A stretch of 64,000 bases of DNA. It comes from Patescibacteria group bacterium. Its GTDB lineage: Bacteria; Patescibacteriota; Patescibacteriia; UBA10025; JAHIVO01. Below, one piece after another: positions 27,172 through 55,006 of the stretch. The DNA is taken from assembly GCA_041650915.1 (NCBI GenBank), contig JBAZKE010000004.1, positions 36,179 through 100,178 of the forward strand, given 5' to 3'. Each line of letters begins with the position of its first letter. Position 1 is the stretch's first letter. The position numbers were made by a program, and so were the translations under genes. Under the pieces are notes generated by a model. It was not told the DNA's origin. It made no database searches and worked only from the letters and a program-made list of their open reading frames with translations.

Positions 27172-27366
27172 GTTGATTCCTTATTCCGTTCCAGCGTTTT
27201 GCAGTATAACTCCATGTTGGCGCGGTCGCGTCGAGCTTCCTGCCGGCCATAACCGAGCCATACACCGTAGCCCATGGCCAGGCCCGCGAGATTTCAATCC
27301 ACACATCATTACAGCTATAAGCCACAAAGGCGATGCGTACCGATGTGGTTTTACTGTGCGGTCAGG

Positions 27367-37657: not shown

Positions 37658-38015
37658 CTATGGCGGTAAGGCAGGCATTGGTGTTGCCCACCAGCCTGCC
37701 GTTTACCTTTTCTACCACGCCTAAACCTACGCTGTCGAGACTCACGGCCCAATCGGGATGGGCGGGCGGCGCGAAATCGATAAGGCCGTTCGTAGCGATT
37801 CTACACTTAACCACTTCCTTTTTCCAAATGCCCGACCGATTTGGTATGTGAAGGTAGTAATGCCTCCAATAATATTGACCATCAACCAGCTCGGTCAGAC
37901 TCACCGTTACCTTGCGCTCGTCTTCAGTGCTATTAGGCAGATAGCACACAGCGTTACACGGAATCGGAATCATCATGGGCATCATTTCTCCCTGACCTCG
38001 CCGGCTTCGATCCAC
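37614..38015 (-). CDS. hypothetical protein
   Basis: 133-aa ORF. Confidence 0.4.
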   Translation of the reverse strand: MDRSRRGQGEMMPMMIPIPCNAVCYLPNSTEDERKVTVSLTELVDGQYYWRHYYLHIPNRSGIWKKEVVKCRIATNGLIDFAPPAHPDWAVSLDSVGLGVVEKVNGRLVGNTNACLTAIDDLDAAFSDRGGWS

Positions 38016-38036
38016 ACACCCTGCTGGCCCGATTCG
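38005..38036 (-). repeat. degenerate CRISPR repeat (canonical 32-nt I-C type); shares the 13-mer GATCCACACACCC with the mini-array unit at 48530
   Basis: GCTTCGATCCACACACCC versus GTTTTGATCCACACACCC. Confidence 0.45.
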
Positions 38037-38060
38037 TCATTCACGACGGTCCAGATCTGG

Positions 38061-38093
38061 TTTCAATCCACTCACCTTCGTGAAGGTGAGACG
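38061..38093 (-). repeat. solitary hairpin-retaining CRISPR repeat unit
   Basis: GTTTCAATCCACTCACCTTCGTGAAGGTGAGAC: first 12 nt identical to the array repeat; stem TCACCTTC/GAAGGTGA maintained by compensatory changes relative to GCGCCTTC/GAAGGCAC. Confidence 0.6.
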
Positions 38094-40934: not shown

Positions 40935-41729
40935 GTGCATTCCTCCCCGGTTCCCCAGCCCACTGTCGGTCAGCATTGTTTTTACTACCGCGTCGTCGAC
41001 ACAGCAACGGGCAAACCCGCGACATACTTCACGCAAGAACGTCTGGCCATGCTGACGGGTCGGTTGCGCCACGGCGTGGGTCGGGCGTTTGTAGCCGCAG
41101 GCACCAATGACGACTGGGTGCAGAGTTACGTACACGGTCACGGCGTAGATTGGTGTGATCAGCGTCTATCCTACGTAGGATTTCCTGACGTGCAGCGTGG
41201 CGGTGGCGCTTTCGGTCTCCGCGTCGATTGCGCTGCTGTCGTATTGCCGGCCGGAGATGCCAGAGCACTACAGCATCTCCAAGCTGCTGGCCGCCTTGAT
41301 TGCGAAGCCTATGCAGCATCCAATGCTGTCTCGTTCATTCCGACCGAACAACCTGATTTTTGTCGCGTGTTTAACACACCAGCACGCACCTGGACCACAG
41401 TCACACCGGTCGCGCACTTCGGATCTCTCTTCACTGCGGATTGGAAATCTTCGGAATTTCTTACTGGATTGGCTTCCAGCGCGCTGGCACAGATTGATCA
41501 TGATGAGGCAGCGATTGCACGTGTACAGGTCAGGTCGACGCCGTTCTATTCCAGCGTGCTCGACGACATGCTTGGCATTCCGGCCAATCAGTATTTCATT
41601 CCCGTGCACATGCGGGGCAAGTTCTCATTTGCCCACGTGCGAATTGAATTCGACCGCGATGTCACGGGACCTGTACTCATGGGATTGGGACAATTCCGTG
41701 GATTTGGGCTGTTCGCGGGAGGTGTATAA
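40935..41729 (+). CDS. hypothetical protein with C-terminal glycine-rich loop (possible RAMP/Cas5-Cas6-like fold)
   Basis: C-terminus ...VLMGLGQFRGFGLFAGGV resembles the RAMP G-rich loop; no other motif recognised. Confidence 0.3.
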   Translation: MHSSPVPQPTVGQHCFYYRVVDTATGKPATYFTQERLAMLTGRLRHGVGRAFVAAGTNDDWVQSYVHGHGVDWCDQRLSYVGFPDVQRGGGAFGLRVDCAAVVLPAGDARALQHLQAAGRLDCEAYAASNAVSFIPTEQPDFCRVFNTPARTWTTVTPVAHFGSLFTADWKSSEFLTGLASSALAQIDHDEAAIARVQVRSTPFYSSVLDDMLGIPANQYFIPVHMRGKFSFAHVRIEFDRDVTGPVLMGLGQFRGFGLFAGGV

Positions 41730-43348: not shown

Positions 43349-44434
43349 CTACACTGGATATCTGTATTCTTTTTCTTGCCAATTCCTTAGCTTTAATTCA
43401 GTTTCTGTTCTTCCCACCACGTAATCCGGCATCACGGGAATTTTCCCACCGCCTCCGGGCGCATCGACGACAAACGTCGGCACGCCATAGCCGGAAATCC
43501 TACCTCGCAGGTAACGAATAATTTCAGTTCCGACGCTGGGGTCACAGCGGAAATGACTCGTGCCCTCTACGGGGTCGCAGGCGTACAGATAATACGGCCG
43601 GACGCGCATTTTCAGCAGTTTGACCATCAAGAGTCGCATGACCTCGGGGTCGTCGTTGATGTTTTTGAGTAGTACGGTCTGAGATCCCAGGGGGCAGCCG
43701 CAATCTGCTAGCGCATTGCACGCTGCTTCGACCTCGGGCGTGATTTCGGCGGGATGGGTCGCGTGAATCGAAATCCAGGGCCGATATTCTCGAAGCAAAC
43801 CGCGTAAATCAGCGTCTATGCGTTGTGGCAGCACCATGGGAACCTTGGTGCCGATGCGGATCATTTCGACATGCGGAATACGGGAAAGTGACTTTAGTAC
43901 AGTCTCCAGTGTAGAAGTCGTGAGAGTCAGTGGATCTCCACCCGAAACCACGACATCGCGGATTTCTGGGTGATGACGAATATACTCGATGGCCTCTGGA
44001 TTATCCGGGGTATAGCAGTGTTGCCCGACAGACCTAGATCGTGTGCAATATCTGCAGTACGCGGCACAGGAATTAGCGACGAGGAACAACACGCGATCCG
44101 GGTATCTGTGAATTAGTCCAGGGACCGGGGAATCATCATCCTCGCCAAGTGGATCTTGAGCTTCGCCAGGCGAAACGATTAACTCCTGTGTCGATGGGAC
44201 CATTGTTTTATTTAGTGGGTGGTTGGCTCCCAGCCGGGCCAAGAGGTCCGCGTAATACGGTGTGATTCTAGCGGGCAGCTTGACACCATCGGCTGGAAAA
44301 TCAGTAATGGTGTGACGGAGTTGCCAACGCCAGTCGTTCCATTGATTCGAATTTTTAATTTCGTCAGGATAAGGCTGTAGCGTACAGGGCAGGGGGTCGG
44401 GGTCGATTAGTGAGATGTCGGGCGGTTCGGTCAA
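43349..44434 (-). CDS. radical SAM aminomutase, KamA/EpmB (lysine 2,3-aminomutase) family
   Basis: CAAYCRYCTRSR (CxxxCxxC) with upstream HRYPDRVLFLV and downstream VVVSGGDPLTL, typical of the KamA family. Confidence 0.65.
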   Translation of the reverse strand: MTEPPDISLIDPDPLPCTLQPYPDEIKNSNQWNDWRWQLRHTITDFPADGVKLPARITPYYADLLARLGANHPLNKTMVPSTQELIVSPGEAQDPLGEDDDSPVPGLIHRYPDRVLFLVANSCAAYCRYCTRSRSVGQHCYTPDNPEAIEYIRHHPEIRDVVVSGGDPLTLTTSTLETVLKSLSRIPHVEMIRIGTKVPMVLPQRIDADLRGLLREYRPWISIHATHPAEITPEVEAACNALADCGCPLGSQTVLLKNINDDPEVMRLLMVKLLKMRVRPYYLYACDPVEGTSHFRCDPSVGTEIIRYLRGRISGYGVPTFVVDAPGGGGKIPVMPDYVVGRTETELKLRNWQEKEYRYPV

Positions 44435-44496: not shown

Positions 44497-45960
44497 TTAC
44501 TGATTTGTTTTTGTCTGTGCGTGTTTAATTTCTCTATAGATGTCGTCGGAAATTAGGCTATTGAACACACGTTGTTCAGTTTCCCAGTACTCTGCGCTTT
44601 TCCGGTCTGCTTCGGCCACGCTAATTTTTTTGCACGCTTGCTCTTTTATCTGCTTTACTTCCTCGCGTCTTGCCATTATGCCGTCTAGGCTATACTCTGC
44701 CGTGTTTGCTGTATCGTCTTCAACGAGCAAGGCGCAAATGAGTTCATGCGCTAGGTGTTCGGTTTTTGTCAGCTTAGCCTCACCTAGTTCTGCAAGCTCA
44801 AATCTGTTCCAGTTTTCGCGTTGTCCTGGTGACAACTTTGCCCATAGTTTGCTAAGCTGTCCGCTGTCTTTGTCCAGCCCCAGTCGGGTGAATTCAGCTT
44901 GGCATTTAGCATACCTAGTTTCTGCGGGTGTGCAGGTGCCGTCTAAGTAGTGTGAGGAAACCGCCTGGGCTAACTCCATTACGTGGAGGAACATCGCGCT
45001 GGTATCCAAAATCGGGTCAGGTGGCAGTATTTTGATGCTTTTGGGGTTGATACCGTTTTGTTTGCTTTTGCTGATGCAGAGTTCCATCCCTTTTTCCGTG
45101 CCGTACCGCGCGATAGCGAAGCTCAGTCGGGATGTTTCGTCTACCTCGGCGTTGTGCACGGGTTTGTACAAACTTTGATATTTTTCAGGTATTAATTGCC
45201 ACACCTGTGTGCATAGGTCGGGGTTGAGCTGTAGTGTTTCTAGTTTGTCTTTGAGCTGCTGCTGCACGGTGTCTTTGTCATAGTGGTCCCAGTGTTCACA
45301 TCGGTCTAGCAAAAAGCTCAGGGCGCGCTCTGCATCAGTCCTAACATTTACAGTGCTGTGCTTTACACTTGGGTTACTATATTTTTCGTGTGTGGCTTCT
45401 TGGCTTTGGTGCCTTGTGCGCTGCCTTAGATCTTCAACTGAAGGGCTGTGTCCCGGCTCCGGTGTAAGTTTTCCGTCTAACTTGTACTTTACGATATTTT
45501 CAACGATCTGTGCGAGCACATGTGTGCTGGGGCATTCTGCTTTATGCAGCATAGCCATACGATCAAATTTGACAAACATGTCGGGTGAAGTCCAAAGCAA
45601 GTTTTTTATTTGCGTTGGTGTAAAAGCTAGTTTTTCTACGGCTCCGGTGCAGTGAGTACTTAAATCAGCCCTGTTGTTTTTGTGCTGTTCCACTAGCGCG
45701 TCAATAGCCGCATCTAGCCGTTGTTCGTCTGCGTCGAGACGTTGCCCGTATGTGTCAACCCGCGCTTGTTTGGCTTTTTCGCGTTCCCCATCCCAATGTT
45801 GCTCTTTCACAAAGACATCGAGTTCCCGGGCAGTCCGGCGAAATTCGTCCGGACTGCATTCGGCGTCGTTCTCTTGGCACCAATCCGAGAAGGCTTTCAA
45901 GGTGTGTGCGAGTGCGGCGCGGCGGTTTTGGCGGAATACAAAATCGGTTTTGTGTACCAT
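44497..45960 (-). CDS. hypothetical 487-aa protein (AT-richer than neighbours), adjacent to the distal end of the CRISPR array
   Basis: long ORF; start set at the ATG with ggag SD (the ORF track begins 12 nt upstream at a TTG). Confidence 0.5.
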   Translation of the reverse strand: MVHKTDFVFRQNRRAALAHTLKAFSDWCQENDAECSPDEFRRTARELDVFVKEQHWDGEREKAKQARVDTYGQRLDADEQRLDAAIDALVEQHKNNRADLSTHCTGAVEKLAFTPTQIKNLLWTSPDMFVKFDRMAMLHKAECPSTHVLAQIVENIVKYKLDGKLTPEPGHSPSVEDLRQRTRHQSQEATHEKYSNPSVKHSTVNVRTDAERALSFLLDRCEHWDHYDKDTVQQQLKDKLETLQLNPDLCTQVWQLIPEKYQSLYKPVHNAEVDETSRLSFAIARYGTEKGMELCISKSKQNGINPKSIKILPPDPILDTSAMFLHVMELAQAVSSHYLDGTCTPAETRYAKCQAEFTRLGLDKDSGQLSKLWAKLSPGQRENWNRFELAELGEAKLTKTEHLAHELICALLVEDDTANTAEYSLDGIMARREEVKQIKEQACKKISVAEADRKSAEYWETEQRVFNSLISDDIYREIKHAQTKTNQ

Positions 45961-46085
45961 AGTAATCTCCAACGGCCCGTAATTGGGCAGTTGGGTTTTA
46001 CATGTTTTACTTGGATGTGAACACGACGCTGCACGTTAAAAAGGTGGCGACTATCCCTCAGCCTCGATCTCGTGGGCTACGTTCT

Positions 46086-46121
46086 GTTTCAACCTCGCGC
46101 CATCCTCGAAAGGACGGCAAT
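46086..46121 (-). repeat. degenerate terminal CRISPR repeat beyond the array's distal end
   Basis: GTTTCAACCTCGCGCCATCCTCGAAAGGACGGCAAT versus consensus; flanked by a duplicated 19-mer CCGTAATTGGGCAGTTGGG at 45977 and 46134. Confidence 0.45.
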
Positions 46122-46158
46122 ATTCCCAACGATCCGTAATTGGGCAGTTGGGATTTTA

Positions 46159-48240
46159 GTTTCAATCCACGTGCCTTCACAAGGAAGGCACGACCGGTCA
46201 ACCTTAGACCCGCAACCCTGGTGACGGTCCAGTTTCAATCCACGTGCCTTCACAAGGAAGGCACGACCTGCCAATCCCGGAGGTTGCAAAACCGCCATGG
46301 CCATGTTTCAATCCACGTGCCTTCACAAGGAAGGCGCGACCCGGCTTGTCGTCTGGCAAATACCATGTCGTGATGCCATTTCAATCCACGTACCTTCTCG
46401 ACAGAAGGCACGACGAATCAGTGAGACCGATATCACTAATACCTCTGAATTATTTCAATCCACGTACCTTCTCGACAGAAGGCACGACGCGCAAGTCGGG
46501 AGCTTGTTTACCCGGCGTAGGACTTATTTCAATCCACGTACCTTCTCGACAGAAGGTACGACCGGGGTTATTTCGTGACCTTCCTCGCCAGCTGGGATGT
46601 ATTTCAACCCACGCGCCTTCTACCAAGAAGGCACGACCTGGATACAATTATCGAGCGCTGCGCGGATGTCCGTTGGTTTCAATCCACGCGCCTTCTACCA
46701 AGAAGGCACGACGACCCATGGGTCAATCGAGATCACTGAAGCGACCTGGTTTCAATCCACGCGCCTTCTACCAAGAAGGCACGACCGAAAGCCGAAGTTG
46801 CCTTGGCCAAGCAATTCGTGGTTTCAATCCACGCGCCTTCTACCAAGAAGGCACGACCCGCTGGATTTTTCTGGGCCCAACCGGTCCATCCTCGTTTCAA
46901 TCCACGCGCCTTCTACCAAGAAGGCACGACTCAAGCCTCGATACGCAAGGTGGTTCCTGCGGCGCCTCGTTTCAATCCACGCGCCTTCTACCAAGAAGGC
47001 ACGACCGATGCCCTGGGTTGATGGCCTCGATATGGTTAACCAGTTTCAATCCACGCGCCTTCTACCAAGAAGGCACGACCTGACACGGCACGGGCTGCAG
47101 CACGATGCTGACGCCGTTTCAATCCACGCGCCTTCTACCAAGAAGGCACGACATGGGAGTCCAAGTAAATGCAACCCGTCAACCCACCGTTTCAATCCAC
47201 GCGCCTTCACAAGGAAGGCACGACATCCTTACCGGTGCGGTGCGGATACCCTCGGTTGGCGTTTCAATCCACGCGCCTTCACAAGGAAGGCACGATCCTC
47301 GGACAGGCTGTCACGGGTCGAGAGTGAATCGTGGTTTCAATCCACGCGCCTTCACAAGGAAGGCACGACCAACTCGCCTTCGAGCAACGCGAGGCCCACG
47401 TCATTGTTTCAATCCACGCGCCTTCACAAGGAAGGCACGACCTCGACAATGAGTTGCACCCCGATGCGCAGCGCCTCACGTTTCAATCCACGCGCCTTCA
47501 CAAGGAAGGCACGACCCGACATAATGACGGGCCCCATCGGTCGCGATGCTGTTTCAATCCACGCGCCTTCACAAGGAAGGCACGACCAGCCTGGGTATAG
47601 GCGTAGGTAGAGATTCGTTCACCGTTTCAATCCACGCGCCTTCACAAGGAAGGCACGACGCGCATTTGTGAGCTTTTCCATGGCAGTCATCGCGTTTCAA
47701 TCCACGCGCCTTCACAAGGAAGGCACGACTCTGGCGAAACTCCCCATATCCGACCCGTCCATCACGGTTTCAATCCACGCGCCTTCACAAGGAAGGCACG
47801 ACCAATCTGTCGTGACCAAGGCTTCGTTGCTCTGCAGATGTTTCAATCCACGCGCCTTCACAAGGAAGGCACGACCTACCAGAACCGATTTACCTGCCCG
47901 CGTTGGACCCCTGTTTCAATCCACGCGCCTTCACAAGGAAGGCACGACAAACACGTTTGGTCCAGGTCCTGCAATACCCAGGTGTATGTTTCAATCCACG
48001 CGCCTTCACAAGGAAGGCACGACGACCTGGCCGAGGATATCCGGGAGCACGGTCAGGTTGTTTCAATCCACGCGCCTTCACAAGGAAGGCACGACAAGCT
48101 CGTTCTCCTGGACTCGCAGCGCACCTAGTTTGTTTCAATCCACGCGCCTTCACAAGGAAGGCACGACAGCGACCGATTAGAAACCCTTTACTCAGGAGAT
48201 AGATGTTTCAATCCACGCGCCTTCACAAGGAAGGCACGAC
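46159..48240 (-). CRISPR. CRISPR array: 29 repeats (36-37 nt), 28 spacers (35-38 nt), transcribed on the minus strand, leader at the high-coordinate end
   Basis: Plus-strand consensus is GTTTCAATCCACGCGCCTTCACAAGGAAGGCACGAC; on the minus strand it reads GTCGTGCCTTCCTTGTGAAGGCGCGTGGATTGAAAC, ending in the ATTGAAAC handle. Repeat subtypes occur in blocks: repeats 1-3 CGTGCC/ACAAG, 4-6 CGTACC/TCGACA (37 nt), 7-14 CGCGCC/TACCAA (37 nt), 15-29 CGCGCC/ACAAG. Degeneration increases toward 46159. Confidence 0.95.
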
Positions 48241-48262
48241 TGCTCGCTAAAATTCACTAGCA

Positions 48263-48291
48263 ATTCTACGCCGTTGTGCACCGGTTTGCGA
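48263..48291 (-). promoter_or_regulatory. candidate leader promoter TCGCAA-N17-TAGAAT for the main array
   Basis: best sigma70-like match in the roughly 210-bp leader; weak -35. Confidence 0.25.
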
Positions 48292-48450
48292 GCACTGCCA
48301 GATGAATTGGTGTTTTTGACTCTGGGCGCGCTTCTGAGCTTCATTACTGTCGGCCCAAGCCATTGATTTTGTTCTCCTGGTGTTCGCGCGAGCGGGTCCG
48401 GGGTTTTCGACGCCACCGAGCCGCTCGCGAGTTGTTTCAGTACAGCCGCA

Positions 48451-48625
48451 CTGTTTTGATCCACGCGCCTGTCGCGCTCCACGCGTTCGAGGCGCGGCGG
48501 AAGATGATATCATACCTGCATACCGCCTGGGGTTTTGATCCACACACCCGCAAGGGTGCGACGGCTACCAACGAGGCCATGAAACTGCTCGACATGTTTC
48601 AATCCGCGCACCCGTGAAAGGTGCG
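48451..48625 (-). CRISPR. decayed mini-array of canonical 32-nt type I-C repeats (3 units) between cas7 and the main-array leader
   Basis: Unit 3 GTTTCAATCCGCGCACCCGTGAAAGGTGCGAC reads on the minus strand as GTCGCACCTTTCACGGGTGCGCGGATTGAAAC, the classic I-C repeat form. Unit 2 is GTTTTGATCCACACACCCGCAAGGGTGCGAC. Unit 1 is disrupted. One 33-nt spacer-like segment lies between units 2 and 3. Confidence 0.6.
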
Positions 48626-48809
48626 ACTGCCCGGTCTCAACCAAGCAGCAATCATTGGCATTTTCGGCGCAGTTCCGCGAACCCAAGGAACAGAGCGCCG
48701 ACATCGTGTTGTATTCAGTTACCAATGTGCAGACCACCAAGCAATTCAGCAACTTACTGTTCCGCGAACCTCCAGGCTTTTACTGAGCGCTGGAGGTTCG
48801 CGCAACCCC

Positions 48810-49802
48810 CTACTTCGAGTTGATGAGTGCCCATCCGCCAGCCAGCCAGTCGCAGTGCTCGACGTTGGCCGGCAGACCCTCGGTGTTAACCGCCAGGGTG
48901 TAGTCCGTGATTTCCCGGACCGCCGTGACTTCCGGCTTCCGCGTCGCCGTAACTCGCTGCATCAGACTGGACCGCGACGCATTGCCCAGTGGGCTCATGT
49001 GCTTGAACGCGTGGAACGCGTGGAGGCAGCGCACGCCCGACGATGCCGTCATGGAGTCCCAGCAACCTACGAATGCTCGGACGAATAGATCTAGGTCGGC
49101 CTGGGTGAATCCCGTCTTGGCTGCCCATGCCGGCGCCACCGTGCCCTCGATGCGGTACAGCCCGAAAGGTACGATGAATTTTTTGCCCATCGTCCGGTTC
49201 GCTGCGGCGCTGTCCTCCGCAGTTTCGTTCTCCCCGCCTGCTTTGTCCTTGCGATTCGTCGCGCACATCCGCGTGATCGTCATGGGCAGGATCTCAATGG
49301 GGTCCACGGATAGCGCCGTGCAGATTTGCACCGGACCCGTAACTTTGCCCCCGCCCGACTTGCCCTTGGCCTTTTTGCCCTTGGCCTTGCCCTTCTTGCT
49401 TGTAGGCGTACCCGCCTCAGTCTCGGGCGCTTCAGGCTCGTCCTCTTTTGCATCGCCGCCGACCATCACGGCGCCAAACGTGCGTACGTCCCAGAACTTA
49501 CGCAGCAGTGCTTGCTGAAGGGTGTCATTCTCCGGCTTTACCGTTTTCTGAACCTCGGCGTTGACTTCTGCGAGCACAGCGCCATCGGTGTAATAGATAT
49601 TGTTTTCCTGCGTGCCTGTAGCTGCGGCGTAATCCTGCACATAATTGCGAATCTTGCGCTTTACGCAGACATCAGACATGATCCCCCTGCCTGTGGTGTA
49701 GTCAGTTCGGGGTTGGTTATCTGCATCGGGGTCACCGTTGGGATTTCCTCGGGCGACAGAAACAAACGCTACAAAATCATACCGGTTCGCGATCGTGGTC
49801 AT
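48810..49802 (-). CDS. cas7: Cas7 (Csd2, type I-C)
   Basis: N-terminal RYDFVAFVSVARGNPNGDPDADNQPRTDYTTGRGIMSDVCVKRKIRNYV matches the Csd2/DevR signature; AAGGAGA SD. Confidence 0.8.
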   Translation of the reverse strand: MTTIANRYDFVAFVSVARGNPNGDPDADNQPRTDYTTGRGIMSDVCVKRKIRNYVQDYAAATGTQENNIYYTDGAVLAEVNAEVQKTVKPENDTLQQALLRKFWDVRTFGAVMVGGDAKEDEPEAPETEAGTPTSKKGKAKGKKAKGKSGGGKVTGPVQICTALSVDPIEILPMTITRMCATNRKDKAGGENETAEDSAAANRTMGKKFIVPFGLYRIEGTVAPAWAAKTGFTQADLDLFVRAFVGCWDSMTASSGVRCLHAFHAFKHMSPLGNASRSSLMQRVTATRKPEVTAVREITDYTLAVNTEGLPANVEHCDWLAGGWALINSK

Positions 49803-49990: not shown

Positions 49991-51835
49991 TTACTCCTCT
50001 GCGTCTGCCTCCTTTTTGGTTTGCATTCGCGACGCAATGTTAGCGTTGAATTGCTGGCGTTGGTGCTCGACGCCGAGAATGAAGTTTTCGCGTGCAGTTA
50101 GATCTGCATGCAGCGGCAGCGCATTATCCCGCGTAATTTCCGCGTTCACCTCCGTCAAAATCTCAAGATAGTGGTCAACCAAGTGCCCCGAGTTCTGGTG
50201 CGCTTCCCGCTGTACGTGACCATTGATTTCTGTTACTAGCTTCACCCATGCGTTGCGCTGTGCAGTGGCTGCCTGCTGGAAAGCGTTGGCCAGCCAGGCG
50301 CTGCGACGCAGTTCGGCCTGCACGACGTTCATCCCAGTTTTACCTCGGTACTGGCAGTACTTTACTTGTTCCAGTATAGCGAACGCTCTCCCCCACAGAT
50401 AGGATGGGTTTTTATTCTCTAGCTCCAGCATGCTCGATACCTCCTGTGCATCAGTTCGGTTTCTGCCGAGTTTGACCAATTTAGCCAATAGGCTGAAACG
50501 CGTGTTTCCTGCTCTCCGGTCGTTGCGCACGTAAATCATTGATGCAGCCAAAGTCGCTGCGTTACGCATACCCACGGGCAATGGAAGTCCTTGGAGCGCG
50601 CAATTCCAAAGGCTCTCTTTGTACCTAGCCATCTGGGCATCGATCTTGGTTCGGTCCACTTTACGTCGGTCGGCCATAGCACGCGTAAGCTCGTACACTG
50701 TGGGCAGCCAGGTCATTTTGCCGTCACCCATGGCGAGGTCATTTCGGTATTTTCGCACGTTACCGATGACTTCTGCGACAGTGCTCGTGTATTGTTTGAC
50801 CATGGCGCGCTTCATATTGGCCGATAGACTCACCAGGAAAAATGGCGAATAGTTTTTGGTGTCTAGATCCGTGTGCTGTGCTGCGTTGGTCAGGTCATGG
50901 CGAAGTTCTTTGCCCCGCACATGATCTAGCTGGCTGTAGTCCTCCGGAGTTGCCTCGGTTTCTTCTTCCGCATTTTCAAGCTCTAGCTGCTGAATAGTGG
51001 TTTGTACCCTGCGTAGGGTTTCCAAATCGCCATCGAGCCAATAGTACATCCGGCTCGTGTCTAGCGAAATGAAGAAACGATTCTCTGCTAGATACGCGAA
51101 CGTTGCTCGGTATTGCGCAATACCCTCAGGCGACATCGGCGCTGCGGCCCCGCGGGCTCCACCATAGCGGAGCAAGTGAGGTAAGTTATACGACACCAGG
51201 GATGCAGACGCCAGTTTGCCGTCAGCTCCTGGCATCACAACGGAGTCGTGTAACTCCTGCGGAGCATCCGTGAACTCCCCCGTGAGAACGCAGCGTACGG
51301 CTTGCTTACACTCAGGCCGGTTAGCCACGCGCCAGGCATCGAAGTAAGGCACAAGCTCCGCTTGCTCGTGCACATACTGTCCGTCGACGATAAATGCAAT
51401 CATGGGTGCGATTTTCCAAGCCAACGCACCCTCTTGCTCCAGCCGAGGGCGCTGTTGTTCCCAGCCGGCATAAAACTTGGCTACAGCTTGGGCACCGACG
51501 TTATTAGAGGCTTCGGCGAAGTAGTTTACCAAATCTACGAACAGACCGAAACACTCGGCAGCACGGTCTTTTTTATCTTCTTTTTCCCACAAACCCAACA
51601 CGTATGTAGCGTTGTCGCAGAAAGGGTTTGCTCGAGCGTTGCGTGTGCGCGGCCCGGGCAGTTTGGGCACTTGCGTGAAGGGGCGTTCGTCACCTTTTAG
51701 CGCGTAGGTTTCGGTGCGTAGTAGATTGCCTCCAGCGTCAAGGACCAAGGCATACCCCAGCGACATAGTTTCGTATCCGGGTCTATTTCCTAGTCCGCGC
51801 TGTACGGCGAATTTAGTGGCTGCGCGTAGGAACAT
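49991..51835 (-). CDS. cas8c: Cas8c (Csd1, type I-C large subunit)
   Basis: 614 aa; N-terminal ...GNRPGYETMSLGYALVLDAGGNLL... resembles Csd1; position between cas5 and cas7; start overlaps cas5 stop (TAATG). Confidence 0.65.
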   Translation of the reverse strand: MFLRAATKFAVQRGLGNRPGYETMSLGYALVLDAGGNLLRTETYALKGDERPFTQVPKLPGPRTRNARANPFCDNATYVLGLWEKEDKKDRAAECFGLFVDLVNYFAEASNNVGAQAVAKFYAGWEQQRPRLEQEGALAWKIAPMIAFIVDGQYVHEQAELVPYFDAWRVANRPECKQAVRCVLTGEFTDAPQELHDSVVMPGADGKLASASLVSYNLPHLLRYGGARGAAAPMSPEGIAQYRATFAYLAENRFFISLDTSRMYYWLDGDLETLRRVQTTIQQLELENAEEETEATPEDYSQLDHVRGKELRHDLTNAAQHTDLDTKNYSPFFLVSLSANMKRAMVKQYTSTVAEVIGNVRKYRNDLAMGDGKMTWLPTVYELTRAMADRRKVDRTKIDAQMARYKESLWNCALQGLPLPVGMRNAATLAASMIYVRNDRRAGNTRFSLLAKLVKLGRNRTDAQEVSSMLELENKNPSYLWGRAFAILEQVKYCQYRGKTGMNVVQAELRRSAWLANAFQQAATAQRNAWVKLVTEINGHVQREAHQNSGHLVDHYLEILTEVNAEITRDNALPLHADLTARENFILGVEHQRQQFNANIASRMQTKKEADAEE

Positions 51836-52506
51836 TATTGCACCGTTCCATAGTGGGTGGCGATAGCGGCTTCGCGCGGTGGAATGTTCAGGACTCCATT
51901 CTCCATGATGGCGTTGTAATACAGCGACACTTTTGGGGACACTTCGTAGTGAAAGTCGTAAAACATGTACCCGAGATCTACTGAAACTGGTAACGCCGTT
52001 TCGCTTTCGAAGTCTGCCGGGGCAACATCTGCGGGGAACTCGCGTCTCCCAAAATAGGGTGCGTGGTGGTATTGTCCGAGGTCTAGACGTCGTGTCAGCA
52101 TGGCCTCGTACTTGGTGAGATTGGCGTCTTCTGTCGGTTTAACAGTTAGGTGCATGACGAATTCTACTAGATAAGCGACGTCACGCAAAATTAGCTGGGC
52201 CATTTGTGTACGAGCTTGCGTAACATCAATTGTAGGTTTATCTTTCGTTGCGGCTTCTTTGATTCCATTGGTGCGAAATCGTACTAGCCTGATGGGTTTT
52301 AGTACTTTGAGCCTGAGCGGCTGGATCCGTACCTCTGGATGCCAAAATACACTCTCGAGCATACCACGAAGCGCGGAAGGCGTAGGCACCTCATAAGATA
52401 CACCTTCGATGCGGAACTCAGGTCGGACGAAGTTTGCGAAGTTGCCTGAAAATTTCACACAAAATGGTTTGCCGGTTTGGCCCACGAAAAAGGGTTTGCC
52501 TGTCAT
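51835..52506 (-). CDS. cas5: Cas5d (type I-C Cas5, pre-crRNA endonuclease)
   Basis: FANFVRPEFRIEGVSYEVPTPSALRGMLESVFWHPE matches the Cas5d N-terminal signature; 223 aa. Confidence 0.75.
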   Translation of the reverse strand: MTGKPFFVGQTGKPFCVKFSGNFANFVRPEFRIEGVSYEVPTPSALRGMLESVFWHPEVRIQPLRLKVLKPIRLVRFRTNGIKEAATKDKPTIDVTQARTQMAQLILRDVAYLVEFVMHLTVKPTEDANLTKYEAMLTRRLDLGQYHHAPYFGRREFPADVAPADFESETALPVSVDLGYMFYDFHYEVSPKVSLYYNAIMENGVLNIPPREAAIATHYGTVQ

Positions 52507-52636: not shown

Positions 52637-55006
52637 TTAGACGATAAGAGGCTGAAGTTGCAGGGATTGCTCGTTTAACTGGCGTACTTGTACACCATAC
52701 CGCGGGTCATACTGAAGCGCGGTAGGGTTCACCAGGAGCAGCGTCGCAGTGTCGACTTTCTTGACCTCGCCCTTGGTATCGTCACCCGCATCGTCTGCAA
52801 AGATCTCATCGTCCAGATTGAGCATGCGGATTAAACCGGCGTCCAGCCATTTGGCCAGACAAGTTTTTGCGATGTTTACGGTGTAGGTCCGCAGTGTACG
52901 ATAAGCTGCCCACGGGCGGTTCCCGCGCTCAATGTTTCTAACGGCTTCAGCACAGATTTCATCTTGAACTATGACGACTGGCGCCGACCAATCGCTCTCG
53001 ATCATCCTGAATTTTTCGCTCACAGTCTGAAAATTAAGTTTTCTACGCTCGGCTTGAATTTCGTCGCCCTGGGCAAGCTTTCGTGTTACGCGCCTATACC
53101 ATTTTTCCCAGTACTCTCGCTGCACCTGGGGATTAAATATATCGAAATCTTCTCCTCTGTTTCGTCGGTTCGTCCGCATTTCCCAAACTGTGGTGATGGC
53201 GGCTTCCAAGCCGTAGTCCATGATATTTTTCGTAGGCGACGCATATAATTTAAGCCTAGCCGCAGCCAAGCGTCCTTCACGGTTCACGCGCCCGGCGAAC
53301 TGAATGATGGAGTCCAGGCCGGCGATCGGTGCAAAACCAAGTGGAAAATCGAAATCGATTCCGGCTTCCACCAGACTCGTTGTTACAAGATGAATTAGTT
53401 TTTTATTTCTAAGTTTGTTCCGTACGTCTGCAATGACCCTAGACCGGTCCATAGGAGTCAGTAGAGCCGACAGTGCTATGATCTCTGCCCCTGTCCTTCG
53501 CGCGTCCAATTCTTCACACAGCGCCTGCACGTCGTCGCGCAACACTACTTTTGTAATGCTAGACACAGTTGAGGCTGTGATTTCGTTCACTAGTTCTGGC
53601 CAAGTGGTGGGCACAAATTCATCTGGCCACTCAACCGCCACACGCGGCGGTATCGTTATTTCGCCAGGTGCAACGATTTGATTTATTGACTTGAATCCGT
53701 ATGCGGTTTTAAGCACAACATTTCCGGGTCCGCGCATGCGGTTCATGACGGCGCGCACACGCTCCTGCCCTTCGAAATCCCATACTGGCACTGTAGCCGT
53801 AGAAATCAATAACGACACACCAAAGTGTTTCACCAGCGTATCCAAAATGTTAAGTACAGGAAATAGCACGTGTGCTGGAATCGTTTGCGCCTCGTCAATG
53901 AACACTACTGTGTTAGCGATGTTGTGGTTTTTACGGCTTTTGCGCACCTTACGCGCCAGTAAAGACTCGAAAAATTGAACCGTAGTCGACACGAGTATCG
54001 GGGCAGCCCAATTGTTAGTAATGAGCATGTCTCTGAATGTAAAGCGCCGGTCACTGCTGTTTTTCTCTGGATCGTACCCAGAATGATGCTCAATGACGTT
54101 ATTTGGTCCAACTGCCCCGCTAATTGCTGCAACCGTTTGCTCGATCAGTGCCTCGAACGGCTGCAAGATGATTATTTTGGATTTGTTGTATTTGATCGCA
54201 TGCAGAATAGCCCATTCAAGGCCCGAAAGTGTTTTGCCAAGCCCCGTTGGTACGTTCAGATAGTGAATTCCAGGAGGAAGCAAGGCAGCCACTCTGCATC
54301 TTTCTCGAACTAGAGCACGTTGTGTGTTTATAAAGGAAGGCTGTGCAGCGTTTTGCAACGCGTCGATCGTGTTTTCTAGTCTTTGACTGATAACAGGTAA
54401 AGAATCGAAGCCTGCTGCGCGCAGCCGCTCGCGTCCAGGCGTTTCTGCATTTTCGGCATCCAGAGCGTCTGCATCGCAAAGGGAAGAAAACAGCATGCGG
54501 AAGAATAGCTCGACAGTATAGATGTCTTTGCGCTGCTCTTGGCTTAATTGCTCCAGAGCGGGAAGTGTTTTAAGCTGCGCGTCCAGCCAAAGAAAACGAT
54601 CGGCTATTGGAATGTTTCTCAGCTCGTCGAGTTCTACCCTGCCCCAATCGATCGATCGGTTCCCTTCGGCATTCATATCCCGCATACCCGAATGGTGGTG
54701 CAGAACGGAGAACCAAACGGCAACGTGTTCTGGTCCTTGCTTGATGATCTGGGCCGCAATTTGTTTAAGATAATGGGCTGCGCTTTCCTTCGCGTGATAC
54801 GTGGTCATTGGGGCTTGCCCGAGTAGATATTGCTGCCAGGGGAGTACGCGCTTCTCGACGTCATGTACCAGGCCAGCCAGTAGGCCCAGATTGCCCAGCC
54901 CAAACGCCGTACAGTATTCTGAGCAGCGTCGGGCCACGCCCGCCAAGTGGTCGACTAAAAGTTGCTGGGCTCCAGCTTCCGAAACTCGGGCAAGCGGCTC
55001 AGTCAT
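52637..55006 (-). CDS. cas3: Cas3 (HD nuclease plus SF2 helicase)
   Basis: N-terminal HD-like LVHDVEK; DEAQ box (VVFIDEAQTIP); 789 aa; first gene of the operon. Confidence 0.75.
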   Translation of the reverse strand: MTEPLARVSEAGAQQLLVDHLAGVARRCSEYCTAFGLGNLGLLAGLVHDVEKRVLPWQQYLLGQAPMTTYHAKESAAHYLKQIAAQIIKQGPEHVAVWFSVLHHHSGMRDMNAEGNRSIDWGRVELDELRNIPIADRFLWLDAQLKTLPALEQLSQEQRKDIYTVELFFRMLFSSLCDADALDAENAETPGRERLRAAGFDSLPVISQRLENTIDALQNAAQPSFINTQRALVRERCRVAALLPPGIHYLNVPTGLGKTLSGLEWAILHAIKYNKSKIIILQPFEALIEQTVAAISGAVGPNNVIEHHSGYDPEKNSSDRRFTFRDMLITNNWAAPILVSTTVQFFESLLARKVRKSRKNHNIANTVVFIDEAQTIPAHVLFPVLNILDTLVKHFGVSLLISTATVPVWDFEGQERVRAVMNRMRGPGNVVLKTAYGFKSINQIVAPGEITIPPRVAVEWPDEFVPTTWPELVNEITASTVSSITKVVLRDDVQALCEELDARRTGAEIIALSALLTPMDRSRVIADVRNKLRNKKLIHLVTTSLVEAGIDFDFPLGFAPIAGLDSIIQFAGRVNREGRLAAARLKLYASPTKNIMDYGLEAAITTVWEMRTNRRNRGEDFDIFNPQVQREYWEKWYRRVTRKLAQGDEIQAERRKLNFQTVSEKFRMIESDWSAPVVIVQDEICAEAVRNIERGNRPWAAYRTLRTYTVNIAKTCLAKWLDAGLIRMLNLDDEIFADDAGDDTKGEVKKVDTATLLLVNPTALQYDPRYGVQVRQLNEQSLQLQPLIV

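What the first reader, a model, noticed from the sequence alone, without database searches (positions are those of the whole stretch)
46086..48240. Array built from four blocks of repeat variants; the 36/37-nt repeats are an elongated-stem derivative of the canonical 32-nt I-C repeat
The sequence shows four repeat subtypes in contiguous blocks. From the distal end these are three CGTGCC/ACAAG repeats, three CGTACC/TCGACA, eight CGCGCC/TACCAA (37 nt) and fifteen CGCGCC/ACAAG. One repeat (47261..47296) ends in CGAT. All of them keep the same 5' GTTTCAATCCAC and 3' GGCACGAC, but the loop and one stem position change block-wise. Copy-the-first-repeat acquisition alone cannot produce loops that go ACAAG, then TCGACA, then TACCAA, then back to ACAAG. 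Recombination between arrays, or fusion of arrays, is more likely. The dominant repeat carries a C-A mismatch in the stem that the oldest block lacks. A duplicated 19-mer (CCGTAATTGGGCAGTTGGG at 45977 and 46134) brackets a terminal degenerate repeat, which suggests a recombination scar at the distal end.
Basis: seen in the sequence. Interest (0 to 1): 0.55.

Follow-up and report, generated by a model that had tools for sequence, protein, structure and literature searches.

The report
Patchwork CRISPR array on a phage
A large phage-like element carries a type I-C CRISPR interference module with no spacer-acquisition genes, next to a 29-repeat array stitched together from at least four hairpin-preserving repeat variants, most likely by recombination between related arrays; this is an unusual example of a process that is already known.

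Summary
There are 29 repeats at 46159-48240, in contiguous blocks of 3, 3, 8 and 15. A 30th, divergent repeat lies at 46086-46121, and a spacer-sized duplication sits at the distal end.

The transcribed strand is the minus strand. On that strand every variant is a type I-C repeat (GUCG...GUGGAUUGAAAC) with an unbroken 9-10 bp stem.

cas3-cas5c-cas8c-cas7 lies directly upstream. No cas1, cas2 or cas4 was found in the window or 10 kb to its left. The element looks like a large phage (at least 108 kb).

Virus-borne I-C modules without adaptation genes in IMG/VR mostly share this long format: 36-37 nt repeats and a period of about 73. Cellular I-C loci have 31-33 nt repeats and a period of 65-68.

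Blocks are nearly uniform inside but differ by 3-7 changes including an indel, and the first and last loops match. In-place mutation of the leader repeat does not explain this. Recombination between related arrays does, and repeat 7 looks like a C/B hybrid. No donor arrays or protospacers were found.

Verdict: a new member of known kinds, of moderate interest.

The parts
52637..55006 (-). cas3 (HD nuclease plus helicase), 789 aa
   Evidence: NCBIfam cas3_HD scores 48.3 bits (cut-off 43.45). cas3_core scores 82.4 bits, below its cut-off of 102.45. Precomputed Pfam hits are DEAD and Cas3-like_C_2.
51835..52506 (-). cas5c, the predicted pre-crRNA endonuclease of type I-C, 223 aa
   Evidence: NCBIfam cas_Cas5d scores 120.6 bits (cut-off 85). 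It matches solved Cas5 'pre-crRNA processing endonuclease' chains such as 8g9t_N at E = 7.8e-34.
49991..51835 (-). cas8c/csd1, 614 aa
   Evidence: NCBIfam cas_Csd1 at E = 1.7e-50 and 172 bits, aligned over nearly the full length but below the curated cut-off of 218.65.
48810..49802 (-). cas7/csd2, 330 aa, with an acidic then Lys/Gly-rich insertion at about residues 116-152
   Evidence: NCBIfam cas_Csd2 scores 212 bits (cut-off 182.25), matched in two stretches. Translation. The nearest relatives among 5.8 billion proteins are only 57% and 48% identical.
48453..48627 (-). Remnant mini-array of canonical-length I-C repeats: R-a 48596-48627 (32 nt), a 33-nt spacer, R-b 48532-48562 (31 nt), and a partial repeat at 48453-48469
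   Evidence: Read directly from the sequence. R-a and R-b fold into 7-8 bp hairpins.
48241..48452 (-). Presumed leader of the main array
   Evidence: Position only. No sigma-70-like promoter was found. It shows no similarity to the sequence upstream of the mini-array or of the solitary repeat.
47189..48240 (-). Block D: 15 repeats (repeats 15-29) of GUCGUGCCUUCCUUGUGAAGGCGCGUGGAUUGAAAC, at the leader end. Repeat 16 (47261-47296) begins AUCG.
46601..47152 (-). Block C: 8 repeats (repeats 7-14) of GUCGUGCCUUCUUGGUAGAAGGCGCGUGGAUUGAAAC (37 nt). Repeat 7 (46601-46637) has a C-type body, the B-type last base (U) and one private change.
46378..46562 (-). Block B: 3 repeats (repeats 4-6) of GUCGUGCCUUCUGUCGAGAAGGUACGUGGAUUGAAAU (37 nt). 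Repeat 6 has GUACC in its 5' arm, which gives a fully Watson-Crick stem.
   Evidence: One unit (spacer 4 plus one B repeat) is missing from the ENA contig.
46159..46340 (-). Block A: 3 repeats (repeats 1-3) of GUCGUGCCUUCCUUGUGAAGGCACGUGGAUUGAAAC (36 nt). Repeat 3 has GCGCC in its 5' arm, which gives a C-A mismatch in the RNA.
46122..46158 (-). Terminal 37-nt 'spacer' slot, a diverged copy of 45963-46000
46086..46121 (-). Terminal repeat, a fifth variant (E): AUUGCCGUCCUUUCGAGGAUGGCGCGAGGUUGAAAC. It still folds into a 9-bp hairpin.
   Evidence: Alignment score 37.5 against a shuffle maximum of 30.5. Fold energy -13.5 kcal/mol; 5 of 200 shuffles fold as well.
45963..46000 (-). Second copy of the duplicated segment. 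It overlaps the ribosome-binding site and 5' untranslated region of the 487-aa ORF at 44497-45960.
   Evidence: The ORF start is taken from the gene call in L001. The flank on the PAM side is ATG, not TTC (read).
38004..38092 (-). Separate one-spacer mini-array: a 33-nt repeat GUCUCACCUUCACGAAGGUGAGUGGAUUGAAAC (38060-38092), which shares the CCUUC/GAAGG inner stem, plus a degenerate 3' half-repeat (38004-38018)

Best explanation
This is the CRISPR locus of a large phage-like element. It consists of a type I-C interference module (cas3-cas5c-cas8c-cas7) without its own adaptation genes, followed on the minus strand by a decayed mini-array, a leader and a 29-repeat array.

How it most likely works (inferred, not shown):
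- The array is transcribed from the cas side.
- Cas5c cuts each repeat at the 3' base of the hairpin.
- This leaves the 11-nt handle UGGAUUGAAAC (ending in U in block B) on a spacer of about 37 nt.

All repeat variants keep the parts that Cas5c is known to read: the base of the stem, the UGG after it, and the handle. They differ only in the loop, the top of the stem, and two stem positions where G-U wobbles keep the pairing. All blocks should therefore still give usable guides.

The block pattern (E1-A3-B3-C8-D15 from the distal end to the leader) most likely arose by homologous recombination or gene conversion between related long-format I-C arrays. These arrays had diverged elsewhere, for example in other arrays of the same phage lineage or in co-infecting relatives. 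The crossovers lay inside repeats, so each event replaced the leader-side part of the array, or inserted a segment, while the older distal blocks stayed.

Shown here: the anatomy, the strand, hairpin preservation, the absence of adaptation genes in the DNA examined, and the comparison with other loci.

Inferred: transcription, processing, and the recombination history.
For: 1. Strand and type. In minus-strand sense the repeat reads GUCG...GCGUGGAUUGAAAC. It shares its last 17 nt with canonical I-C repeats such as that of L181. The cas genes are on the same strand, immediately upstream. All four variants fold with a 2-nt 5' overhang, a 9-10 bp stem, a 4-5 nt loop and an 11-nt 3' tail, at -14.2 to -16.5 kcal/mol. 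On the plus strand three of the four have an internal mismatch.

2. Tolerated variation. Published mutagenesis shows that Cas5c processing is sensitive to the stem base, the UGG after the cut and the 3' overhang, but not to the pentaloop or the 5' overhang (PMC8524198). The variants differ at the insensitive positions.

3. Against in-place divergence. Edit distances are A-D 1, C-D 3, A-C 4, A-B 6, B-C 6 and B-D 7, yet the repeats within a block are identical apart from four singletons. If the differences had built up in place over time, the old repeats would also have drifted apart. If they arose at integration, 15 changes would have to fall in 3 of 28 steps (upper bound about 1e-11, my arithmetic). 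No intermediates are present.

4. Hybrid junction. Repeat 7 has the C-type loop and 3' arm but the B-type last base. This is what a crossover inside a repeat between a C array on the leader side and a B array on the distal side would leave.

5. Singletons at junctions. Three of the four singleton variants (repeats 3, 6 and 7) sit at block boundaries (hypergeometric p about 0.02, my arithmetic).

6. Normal junction spacers. They are 37, 38 and 36 nt, with no leader remnants, so the joins were repeat to repeat.

7. Ongoing recombination. Repeat-mediated recombination operates in this population: a second assembly lacks exactly one repeat-spacer unit.

8. Substrates exist in this class of element. 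Related virus-borne I-C loci carry two arrays whose repeats differ in the loop (L247, L255), and one has distal variant blocks (L245).

9. Common machinery. All blocks share the unusual spacer length: mean 36.7 nt, against array means of 33.4-35.5 in 29 reference arrays. The donors therefore belonged to the same long-format sub-family.

10. Known process. Recombination and non-monotonic repeat patterns in arrays are documented (PMC4524480; bioRxiv 10.1101/2022.05.19.492656).
Against: - No donor array was found. The extended CCTTC...GAAGG repeat has no exact match in JGI metagenome contigs or IMG/VR. A protein-space search with a spurious array ORF found only this contig and canonical 32-nt arrays.
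- No spacer is shared with any other array, which is the direct evidence normally used to show array recombination.
- The private changes in repeats 3 and 6 are not explained by simple crossovers between the observed variants.
- Both assemblies may derive from the same or related samples, so the long-range order of the blocks has not been confirmed by long reads.
- The hybrid reading of repeat 7 rests on a single base. That base could instead have been acquired with the spacer.
Confidence: 0.6

Rival explanations
1. Local expansion of an old, already diverged short array. An ancestral array of about five repeats (E, A, B, C, D) had diverged slowly while selection kept the hairpin. Later, spacers were inserted at internal repeats as well as at the leader. 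Each insertion duplicated the local variant and so grew a block.
For: - Internal insertion is one of the explanations offered for non-monotonic repeat patterns (bioRxiv 10.1101/2022.05.19.492656).
- The element has no adaptation genes of its own. Adaptation in trans by a foreign Cas1-Cas2 might not be well anchored to the leader.
- All variants, including the terminal E repeat, keep a hairpin, which fits long-term selection on structure.
Against: - It needs repeated off-leader integration at three or more internal sites.
- It does not explain the C/B hybrid repeat 7 or the clustering of singletons at boundaries.
- It still needs a source for five deeply different repeats in one short array.
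- None of 38 reference arrays has multi-copy variants that differ by more than one base.
Confidence: 0.12
2. Capture from host arrays. The phage cannot acquire spacers itself. It picked up ready-made repeat-spacer segments from the CRISPR arrays of successive hosts by recombination, one block per host lineage.
For: - No cas1, cas2 or cas4 in the window, in 10 kb to its left or in 1.6 kb to its right.
- Phage arrays with host-like repeats have been described (PMC7162821).
- The array has 29 repeats, far above the median of six reported for huge-phage arrays.
Against: - Cellular I-C loci with adaptation genes have 31-33 nt repeats and spacers of about 34-35 nt. This array has 36-37 nt repeats and spacers of about 37 nt in all blocks, like other virus-borne modules.
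- No cellular array with these repeats was found. The one genome-collection scan was uninformative because its pattern was too loose.
Confidence: 0.12
3. Serial point mutation of the leader-proximal repeat, with each new version copied by later acquisitions.
For: - The A to D difference is a single base and could have arisen this way.
- Single-base blocks are common in reference arrays.
Against: - The route A to B to C to D needs 6 + 6 + 3 changes including indels, then a return to the A loop, with no intermediates.
- Repeats within a block stayed identical meanwhile.
Confidence: 0.03
4. Assembly artefact. The array is a chimera of strain-specific arrays joined by the assembler, or has collapsed repeats.
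For: - The source is a metagenome assembly.
- A short-k assembly of SRR8542065 breaks in the first repeat.
- The two long contigs differ by one unit.
Against: - Two different assemblies give the same order for 27 of the 28 spacers and identical sequence over 21 kb.
- The ENA contig name (k141_) points to 141-mers. Repeat + spacer + repeat is about 109 nt, so every junction between two repeat types lies within single k-mers taken from reads (inference).
- All spacers are unique and the spacing is regular.
Confidence: 0.07

Closest known systems
Canonical type I-C (Dvulg) CRISPR-Cas, for example Desulfovibrio vulgaris, Bacillus halodurans and Streptococcus mutans CRISPR2
   Same: - The gene set and order cas3-cas5c-cas8c-cas7, with Cas5c instead of Cas6.
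- The repeat begins GUCG and ends GCGUGGAUUGAAAC.
- A 2-nt 5' overhang and an 11-nt 3' overhang.
   Different: - No cas4-cas1-cas2.
- Repeats of 36-37 nt with a 9-10 bp stem, instead of 32 nt with 7 bp.
- Spacers of about 37 nt instead of about 34.5.
- Cas proteins are very divergent: Cas7 is at most 40% identical to ordinary I-C Cas7, and Cas8c scores below the curated cut-off.
Virus-borne I-C modules without adaptation genes: the type I-C variant of huge phages (Al-Shayeb et al. 2020, PMC7162821) and IMG/VR loci L245, L247, L251 and L239
   Same: - No cas1, cas2 or cas4 next to the module.
- The array starts about 200 nt after cas7.
- Repeats of 36-37 nt and a period of 72-74.
- L245 has nearly the same protein lengths (792, 223, 610 and 341 aa).
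   Different: - The published variant has a helicase in place of Cas3; here an HD-domain Cas3 is present.
- Cas7 identity to the IMG/VR loci is only 27-33%.
- Those arrays are uniform or vary only at the distal end, whereas this one has four multi-copy variants.
- It has 29 repeats, against a reported median of six.
Recombinant or rearranged CRISPR arrays (Kupczok et al. 2015, PMC4524480; Ou and McInerney 2022, bioRxiv 10.1101/2022.05.19.492656)
   Same: Repeat variants occur in blocks, and their order cannot come from polarised acquisition alone.
   Different: - Published and reference cases track single-base variants. Here the variants differ by 3-7 positions and by length while keeping the hairpin.
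- No shared-spacer evidence is available.
Type I-G (formerly I-U) arrays
   Same: - 36-nt repeats with 36-nt spacers and a long hairpin (PMC9638904).
- A stand-alone Cas6g-like protein is encoded 4.4 kb from the array.
   Different: - The I-G repeat GUCAUCCGCGGCAUUUAGCCGCGGCCUCAUUGAAGC has a 5-nt 5' overhang, a 12-nt tail and an AUUGAAGC handle, and is unlike the repeat here.
- No cas7g, cas8g or cas4/1 fusion was seen.

Membership tests
Type I-C CRISPR-Cas system | Cas5c (catalytic Cas5) present, with no Cas6 in the operon | tested here: met
   cas_Cas5d scores 120.6 bits, above its cut-off of 85. It matches solved Cas5c endonucleases at E = 7.8e-34. There is no cas6 in the operon.
Type I-C CRISPR-Cas system | Cas8c/Csd1 large subunit | tested here: inconclusive
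   TIGR01863 matches over nearly the full length at E = 1.7e-50, but its 172 bits fall below the curated cut-off of 218.65.
Type I-C CRISPR-Cas system | Cas7/Csd2 and Cas3 with an HD domain | tested here: met
   Csd2 scores 212 bits (cut-off 182.25) and cas3_HD scores 48.3 bits (cut-off 43.45). The cas3 helicase core scores 82.4 bits, below its cut-off of 102.45.
Type I-C CRISPR-Cas system | Adaptation module cas4-cas1-cas2 in the locus | tested here: not met
   No Pfam or NCBIfam hit, and no tblastn hit (E < 1e-4) to I-C Cas1, Cas2 or Cas4, in the window, in 10 kb to its left or in 1.6 kb to its right. About 27 kb of the source contig was not seen.
Canonical I-C repeat | 2-nt 5' overhang and an 11-nt 3' overhang that begins UGG and ends AUUGAAAC/U | tested here: met
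   Folds, compared with PMC8524198.
Canonical I-C repeat | 32-33 nt long with a 7-bp stem and a pentaloop | tested here: not met
   Here the repeats are 36-37 nt with a 9-10 bp stem. 37 of 38 reference arrays have repeats of 31-33 nt.
Virus-borne I-C variant without adaptation genes (huge phages) | Encoded on a phage genome | tested here: inconclusive
   For:
- An endolysin, long runs of small ORFs with no known relatives, ribonucleotide reductase and a resolvase.
- A conserved protein (1541-2578) has 12 relatives on IMG/VR viral contigs of 24-392 kb.

Against or missing:
- No capsid or terminase gene was identified.
- The structure model was poor.
- NCBI labels the source genome Patescibacteria.
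Virus-borne I-C variant without adaptation genes (huge phages) | Long-format array: repeats of 36-37 nt and a period of about 72-74 | tested here: met
   The window has a period of 70-75. L239, L245, L247 and L251 have a period of 72-74. IMG/VR loci with cas1, cas2 and cas4 have a period of 65-68.
Virus-borne I-C variant without adaptation genes (huge phages) | Helicase replacing Cas3, and a compact array (as described in PMC7162821) | tested here: not met
   An HD-domain Cas3 is present and the array has 29 repeats.
Recombinant CRISPR array | An order of repeat variants that polarised acquisition cannot produce | tested here: met
   The order is A, B, C, D, with D one base away from A and B and C unrelated in the loop.
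Recombinant CRISPR array | Spacer blocks shared with another array, in a conflicting order | tested here: inconclusive
   No other array with these repeats or spacers was found in the collections searched. The genome-collection scan was uninformative.
Type I-G array | I-G repeat sequence and structure, and I-G effector genes | tested here: not met
   The repeat is unlike the Thioalkalivibrio I-G repeat. The only I-G-like gene is a stand-alone homolog of the Cas6g domain.

The most novel reading that the evidence does not exclude
Phages of this lineage carry an I-C interference module but cannot acquire spacers. They may build and update their CRISPR memory mainly by swapping repeat-spacer cassettes through recombination between arrays of co-infecting relatives, or with hosts that have compatible long-format arrays. 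On this reading the five repeat lineages in one array are the footprint of that modular exchange. The loop differences would then act as natural barcodes of each cassette's origin.
Probability: 0.25. Interest if true: 0.6.

Novelty: new member of a known kind. Interest (0 to 1): 0.4.

Why it matters
If the recombination reading is right, the order of spacers in this array is not a simple time line. It would also show one way an element without Cas1-Cas2 can still hold a large guide repertoire (28 spacers).

The repeat variants form a natural mutational series. It suggests which repeat positions a divergent Cas5c tolerates: the loop, the top of the stem and wobble positions. That bears on the design of I-C guide arrays.

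The split seen here between cellular I-C loci (repeats 31-33 nt, period 65-68) and virus-borne loci without adaptation genes (repeats 36-37 nt, period 72-74) is a small, testable lead. It raises the question of which adaptation machinery makes these longer spacers.

Tried and rejected
1. The genome-contig scan used TTCAATCCACGNNCCTTC. With only 16 specified bases the pattern was too loose. No conclusion about isolate genomes or genome bins can be drawn from it.
2. A strict pattern covering all four variants found nothing in JGI metagenome contigs or IMG/VR.
3. The whole array searched against GenBank phages with blastn found no match. Four spacers, one per block, searched as exact 28-mers in IMG/VR found no match. 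The idea that each block targets different elements therefore could not be tested.
4. Spacers searched against the rest of the window gave no self-target apart from the terminal pseudo-spacer.
5. A spurious ORF that reads through the array was searched in the protein database, to find arrays with the same repeats. It found only the ENA copy of this locus and canonical 32-nt I-C arrays.
6. Cas8c alone gave no relatives in IMG/VR.
7. Rfam gave no match to the repeats.
8. A promoter scan of the leader found nothing.
9. Leader homology was tested between the main array, the mini-array and the solitary repeat; none was found. Tandem duplication of a whole array is therefore not supported.
10. A second decayed repeat was sought between 45940 and 46085; the score was not above chance.
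11. The 1541-2578 protein was tested as a capsid or tail protein. The model was poor (pLDDT 53.5, TM-scores 0.2-0.28), so the result is not usable.
12. The type I-G reading of the array was rejected on repeat sequence.
13. The 487-aa ORF downstream of the array has no family hits. It is unrelated to the ORF downstream of the L245 array.
14. P0129 looked like a strain variant of the KamA protein but differs only in the start residue.
Full report
**What is there**

Between 46159 and 48240 the window holds 29 direct repeats with start-to-start spacing of 70-75 nt. In + coordinates they form four uninterrupted blocks:

| Block | Copies | Repeat | Length |
|---|---|---|---|
| A | 3 | GTTTCAATCCACGTGCCTTCACAAGGAAGGCACGAC | 36 nt |
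| B | 3 | ATTTCAATCCACGTACCTTCTCGACAGAAGGCACGAC | 37 nt |
| C | 8 | ...CGCGCCTTCTACCAAGAAGGCACGAC | 37 nt |
| D | 15 | ...CGCGCCTTCACAAGGAAGGCACGAC | 36 nt |

Four repeats are singletons:
- Repeat 3 ends GGCGCGAC.
- Repeat 6 ends GGTACGAC.
- Repeat 7 starts ATTTCAACCCAC.
- Repeat 16 ends CGAT.

The 28 spacers are all different, 34-39 nt long (mean 36.7), and have no match elsewhere in the window. A 30th, divergent repeat lies at 46086-46121; its alignment score is 37.5, against a maximum of 30.5 in shuffles.

**Strand and type**

On the minus strand the repeat is GUCGUGCCUUCCUUGUGAAGGCGCGUGGAUUGAAAC. It begins and ends like canonical type I-C repeats and shares its last 17 nt with, for example, the repeat of L181.

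Immediately upstream on the minus strand lie these genes:
- cas3, 52637-55006
- cas5c, 51835-52506
- cas8c, 49991-51835
- cas7, 48810-49802

The divergent terminal repeat is at the far end, as expected for the distal end of an array.

Folded as minus-strand RNA, all four variants give a 2-nt 5' overhang, an unbroken 9- or 10-bp stem, a 5- or 4-nt loop and an 11-nt tail, at -14.2 to -16.5 kcal/mol. On the + strand three of the four have an internal mismatch. The 'C-A mismatch of the dominant repeat' is therefore a G-U wobble seen from the wrong strand.

Canonical I-C repeats have a 7-bp stem, a pentaloop, and 2-nt and 11-nt overhangs (PMC8524198). Calling this an 'elongated-stem I-C derivative' is a fair description.

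That paper also reports which positions matter for Cas5c processing. It depends on the stem base, the UGG after the cut and the 3' overhang, but not on the loop. The variants here differ in the loop, at the top of the stem and at two wobble positions. All should therefore be processed; this is inferred, not tested.

**Surroundings**

Between cas7 and the main array lies a decayed mini-array of canonical-length repeats:
- R-a at 48596-48627 (32 nt)
- a 33-nt spacer
- R-b at 48532-48562 (31 nt)
- a partial repeat at 48453-48469

A stretch of 212 nt then serves as the presumed leader. No promoter was predicted in it.

A separate one-spacer mini-array lies at 38004-38092. Its 33-nt repeat shares the CCUUC/GAAGG inner stem.

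No cas1, cas2 or cas4 was found anywhere in the window, in 10 kb to its left or in 1.6 kb to its right. This was checked with family searches, with the precomputed Pfam hits for called genes, and with tblastn using I-C Cas1, Cas2 and Cas4 as queries.

**What the element is**

Most genes are small, densely packed and have no known relatives. Identifiable genes include:
- an endolysin (5946-6902)
- a TnpB (30472-31596)
- RNase H
- an R2K ATP-grasp protein
- ribonucleotide reductase
- a resolvase at the contig end

A conserved protein (1541-2578) has 12 relatives on IMG/VR viral contigs of 24-392 kb. NCBI labels the source genome bin 'Patescibacteria group bacterium', on a contig of 107,933 bp. 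I read the element as a large phage, with moderate confidence. No capsid or terminase gene was identified, and the one structure model was too poor to use.

The Cas proteins are rare. Each is alone in its 90%-identity cluster. The nearest Cas7 relatives are 57% and 48% identical, and all others are at most about 40%.

**Is it an assembly artefact?**

An ENA contig (ERZ27247363 k141_1703148, 101.7 kb) is identical to the window over 21 kb, except that it lacks one 74-bp unit: spacer 4 plus one B repeat. A Logan contig from SRR8542065 is identical over 11.6 kb and stops inside the first repeat.

Two assemblies therefore agree on the block order. With 141-mers, each repeat-spacer-repeat junction (about 109 nt) lies within single k-mers taken from reads; this is inference from the contig name. 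The one-unit difference is the usual kind of repeat-mediated deletion. I give the artefact explanation about 0.07.

**How unusual is it?**

I used 38 I-C arrays found next to Cas7 homologs in public metagenomes as a reference set.
- Repeat length is 31-33 nt in 37 of them. One has 37 nt (L142).
- Mean spacer length per array is 33.4-35.5 nt in the 29 arrays measured.
- Eight arrays have two or more multi-copy repeat variants in blocks, including A-B-A patterns (L153, L205, L206, L193). In every case the variants differ by one base.

A survey of 1,095 arrays likewise found non-monotonic repeat patterns in more than half of the arrays with trackable mutations. Its authors attributed them to internal insertion, recombination or transfer. 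Block patterns and 'reversion' are therefore ordinary.

What sets this array apart is four multi-copy variants with edit distances of 1 to 7, different lengths and unrelated loops, plus a fifth terminal variant that still folds.

**The long format is shared with other viral loci**

IMG/VR loci encoding I-C Cas7 relatives fall into two groups:

| Group | Repeat length | Period | Loci |
|---|---|---|---|
| With cas1, cas2 and cas4 | 31-33 nt | 65-68 | 8 arrays in L225-L252 |
| Without them, on contigs of 54-527 kb | mostly 36-37 nt | 72-74 | L239, L245, L247, L251 |

Two other loci without these genes do not fit that period: L254 has a period of 69, and L255 has 36-nt repeats with a period of 66.

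L245 has the same architecture and nearly the same protein lengths as the window. L247 and L255 each carry two arrays whose repeats differ in the loop, and L245 has a distal block of three variant repeats.

This matches the report that almost all huge-phage CRISPR systems lack Cas1, Cas2 and Cas4, including a type I-C variant (PMC7162821). The present locus differs from that report in having an HD-domain Cas3 and 29 repeats rather than a median of six.

**How the blocks arose**

In-place mutation of the leader repeat would need 6 + 6 + 3 changes, including indels, concentrated in three of 28 acquisition steps, followed by a return to the A loop. All the while the repeats inside each block stayed identical. 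Slow drift would also have diversified the older repeats, and it did not. I consider this explanation excluded for all transitions except possibly A to D, which is a single base.

Simple fusion of arrays by deletion is unlikely, because no leader remnant or odd-sized spacer marks the junctions.

Recombination or gene conversion between related long-format arrays, with crossovers inside repeats, fits best. The supporting points are:
- Repeat 7 has a C-type body and the B-type last base, as a crossover product would.
- Three of the four singletons sit at block boundaries (p about 0.02).
- All blocks share the unusual spacer length.
- Repeat-mediated recombination is visibly active in this population.
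- Sister elements carry several arrays with loop variants.

What is missing is a donor. No other array with these repeats, and no shared spacer, was found. I could not search isolate genomes properly, because my one scan was wasted on a pattern that was too loose.

Two alternatives remain open, at about 0.12 each: local expansion of an old diverged array by internal integration, and capture of segments from host arrays.

**The distal duplication**

45963-46000 and 46121-46158 align over 38 nt with about 33 matches. The second copy fills the terminal spacer slot almost exactly. The first overlaps the ribosome-binding site and 5' untranslated region of the downstream 487-aa ORF, so it is probably the original.

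The copy could be an old self-derived spacer. Its source lacks the TTC PAM (the flank is ATG, read), so such a spacer would be tolerated. Alternatively it could be a scar of a rearrangement at the array end. I could not decide between these.

**Verdict**

This is a new member of two known kinds: virus-borne I-C modules without adaptation genes, and recombinant CRISPR arrays. It is notable for the number and divergence of its repeat variants. Interest is 0.4.

Noticed in passing
window 40935-41729 (+): A stand-alone 264-aa RAMP protein matches only the C-terminal, Cas6-like half of type I-G Cas5-6g/Csb2 (PADLOC Cas56g E = 2.5e-16; Pfam Cas_GSU0054 positions 280-551 of 552). It ends in a glycine-rich loop. 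No other I-G genes are nearby. In I-G the isolated Cas6 domain can cut repeats on its own (PMC9638904). It might process some of the hairpin repeats here, or act on host RNAs.
   Followed up: partly
window 48453-48627 (-): A decayed mini-array of canonical-length I-C repeats (32 and 31 nt, with a 33-nt spacer) sits between cas7 and the leader of the long-format array. The locus therefore holds two formats of I-C repeat in tandem.
   Followed up: partly
window 38004-38092 (-): A one-spacer mini-array has a 33-nt repeat GUCUCACCUUCACGAAGGUGAGUGGAUUGAAAC, which shares the CCUUC/GAAGG inner stem, and a degenerate half-repeat. It lies 8 kb from the main array, next to an HSP20 gene. It recalls the virus-borne mini-arrays and solitary repeats described in the literature (from my own knowledge, not checked here).
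   Followed up: partly
window 27291-27304 (-): An isolated handle-like motif GUGUGGAUUGAAAU with no clear hairpin before it. It may be a repeat remnant or a chance match.
   Followed up: no
IMG/VR loci L225-L256 compared with the window: I-C loci with cas1, cas2 and cas4 have repeats of 31-33 nt and a period of 65-68. Loci without them on large viral contigs mostly have repeats of 36-37 nt and a period of 72-74. This suggests a distinct long-format, virus-associated I-C sub-family whose adaptation machinery is unidentified.
   Followed up: partly
L001 (ENA ERZ27247363 k141_1703148) compared with window 46415-46488: The second assembly lacks exactly one repeat-spacer unit (spacer 4 plus one B repeat) and is otherwise identical over 21 kb. 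This is either population heterogeneity or a popped assembly bubble.
   Followed up: yes
window 48810-49802 (-), Cas7 residues about 116-152: Cas7 has an acidic then Lys/Gly-rich low-complexity insertion (GDAKEDEPEAPETEAGTPTSKKGKAKGKKAKGKSGGGK). It splits the match to the Csd2 profile into two stretches.
   Followed up: no
whole window; NCBI proteins MFA5135318.1 to MFA5135344.1: The source genome bin is labelled 'Patescibacteria group bacterium', but the 100-kb contig looks like a large phage: an endolysin, long runs of ORFs with no relatives, ribonucleotide reductase, a resolvase, and relatives in IMG/VR. The bin is probably contaminated, or the phage may be associated with that host.
   Followed up: partly
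window 43349-44434 (-) and 58589-60310 (-): A KamA-family (lysine 2,3-aminomutase-like) radical SAM protein and a second 573-aa radical SAM protein flank the CRISPR locus. These are unusual auxiliary genes for a phage.
   Followed up: no
window 30472-31596 (-): A TnpB (IS200/IS605-type, Cas12f1-like TNB domain) lies in the phage-like element. L245 also has a TnpB-like gene just upstream of its cas3.
   Followed up: no
window 44497-45960 (-): A 487-aa ORF lies directly downstream of the array on the same strand as the cas genes. It has no hit in Pfam, NCBIfam, PHROGs or PADLOC. Its ribosome-binding region is the source of the duplicated segment in the terminal spacer slot.
   Followed up: partly
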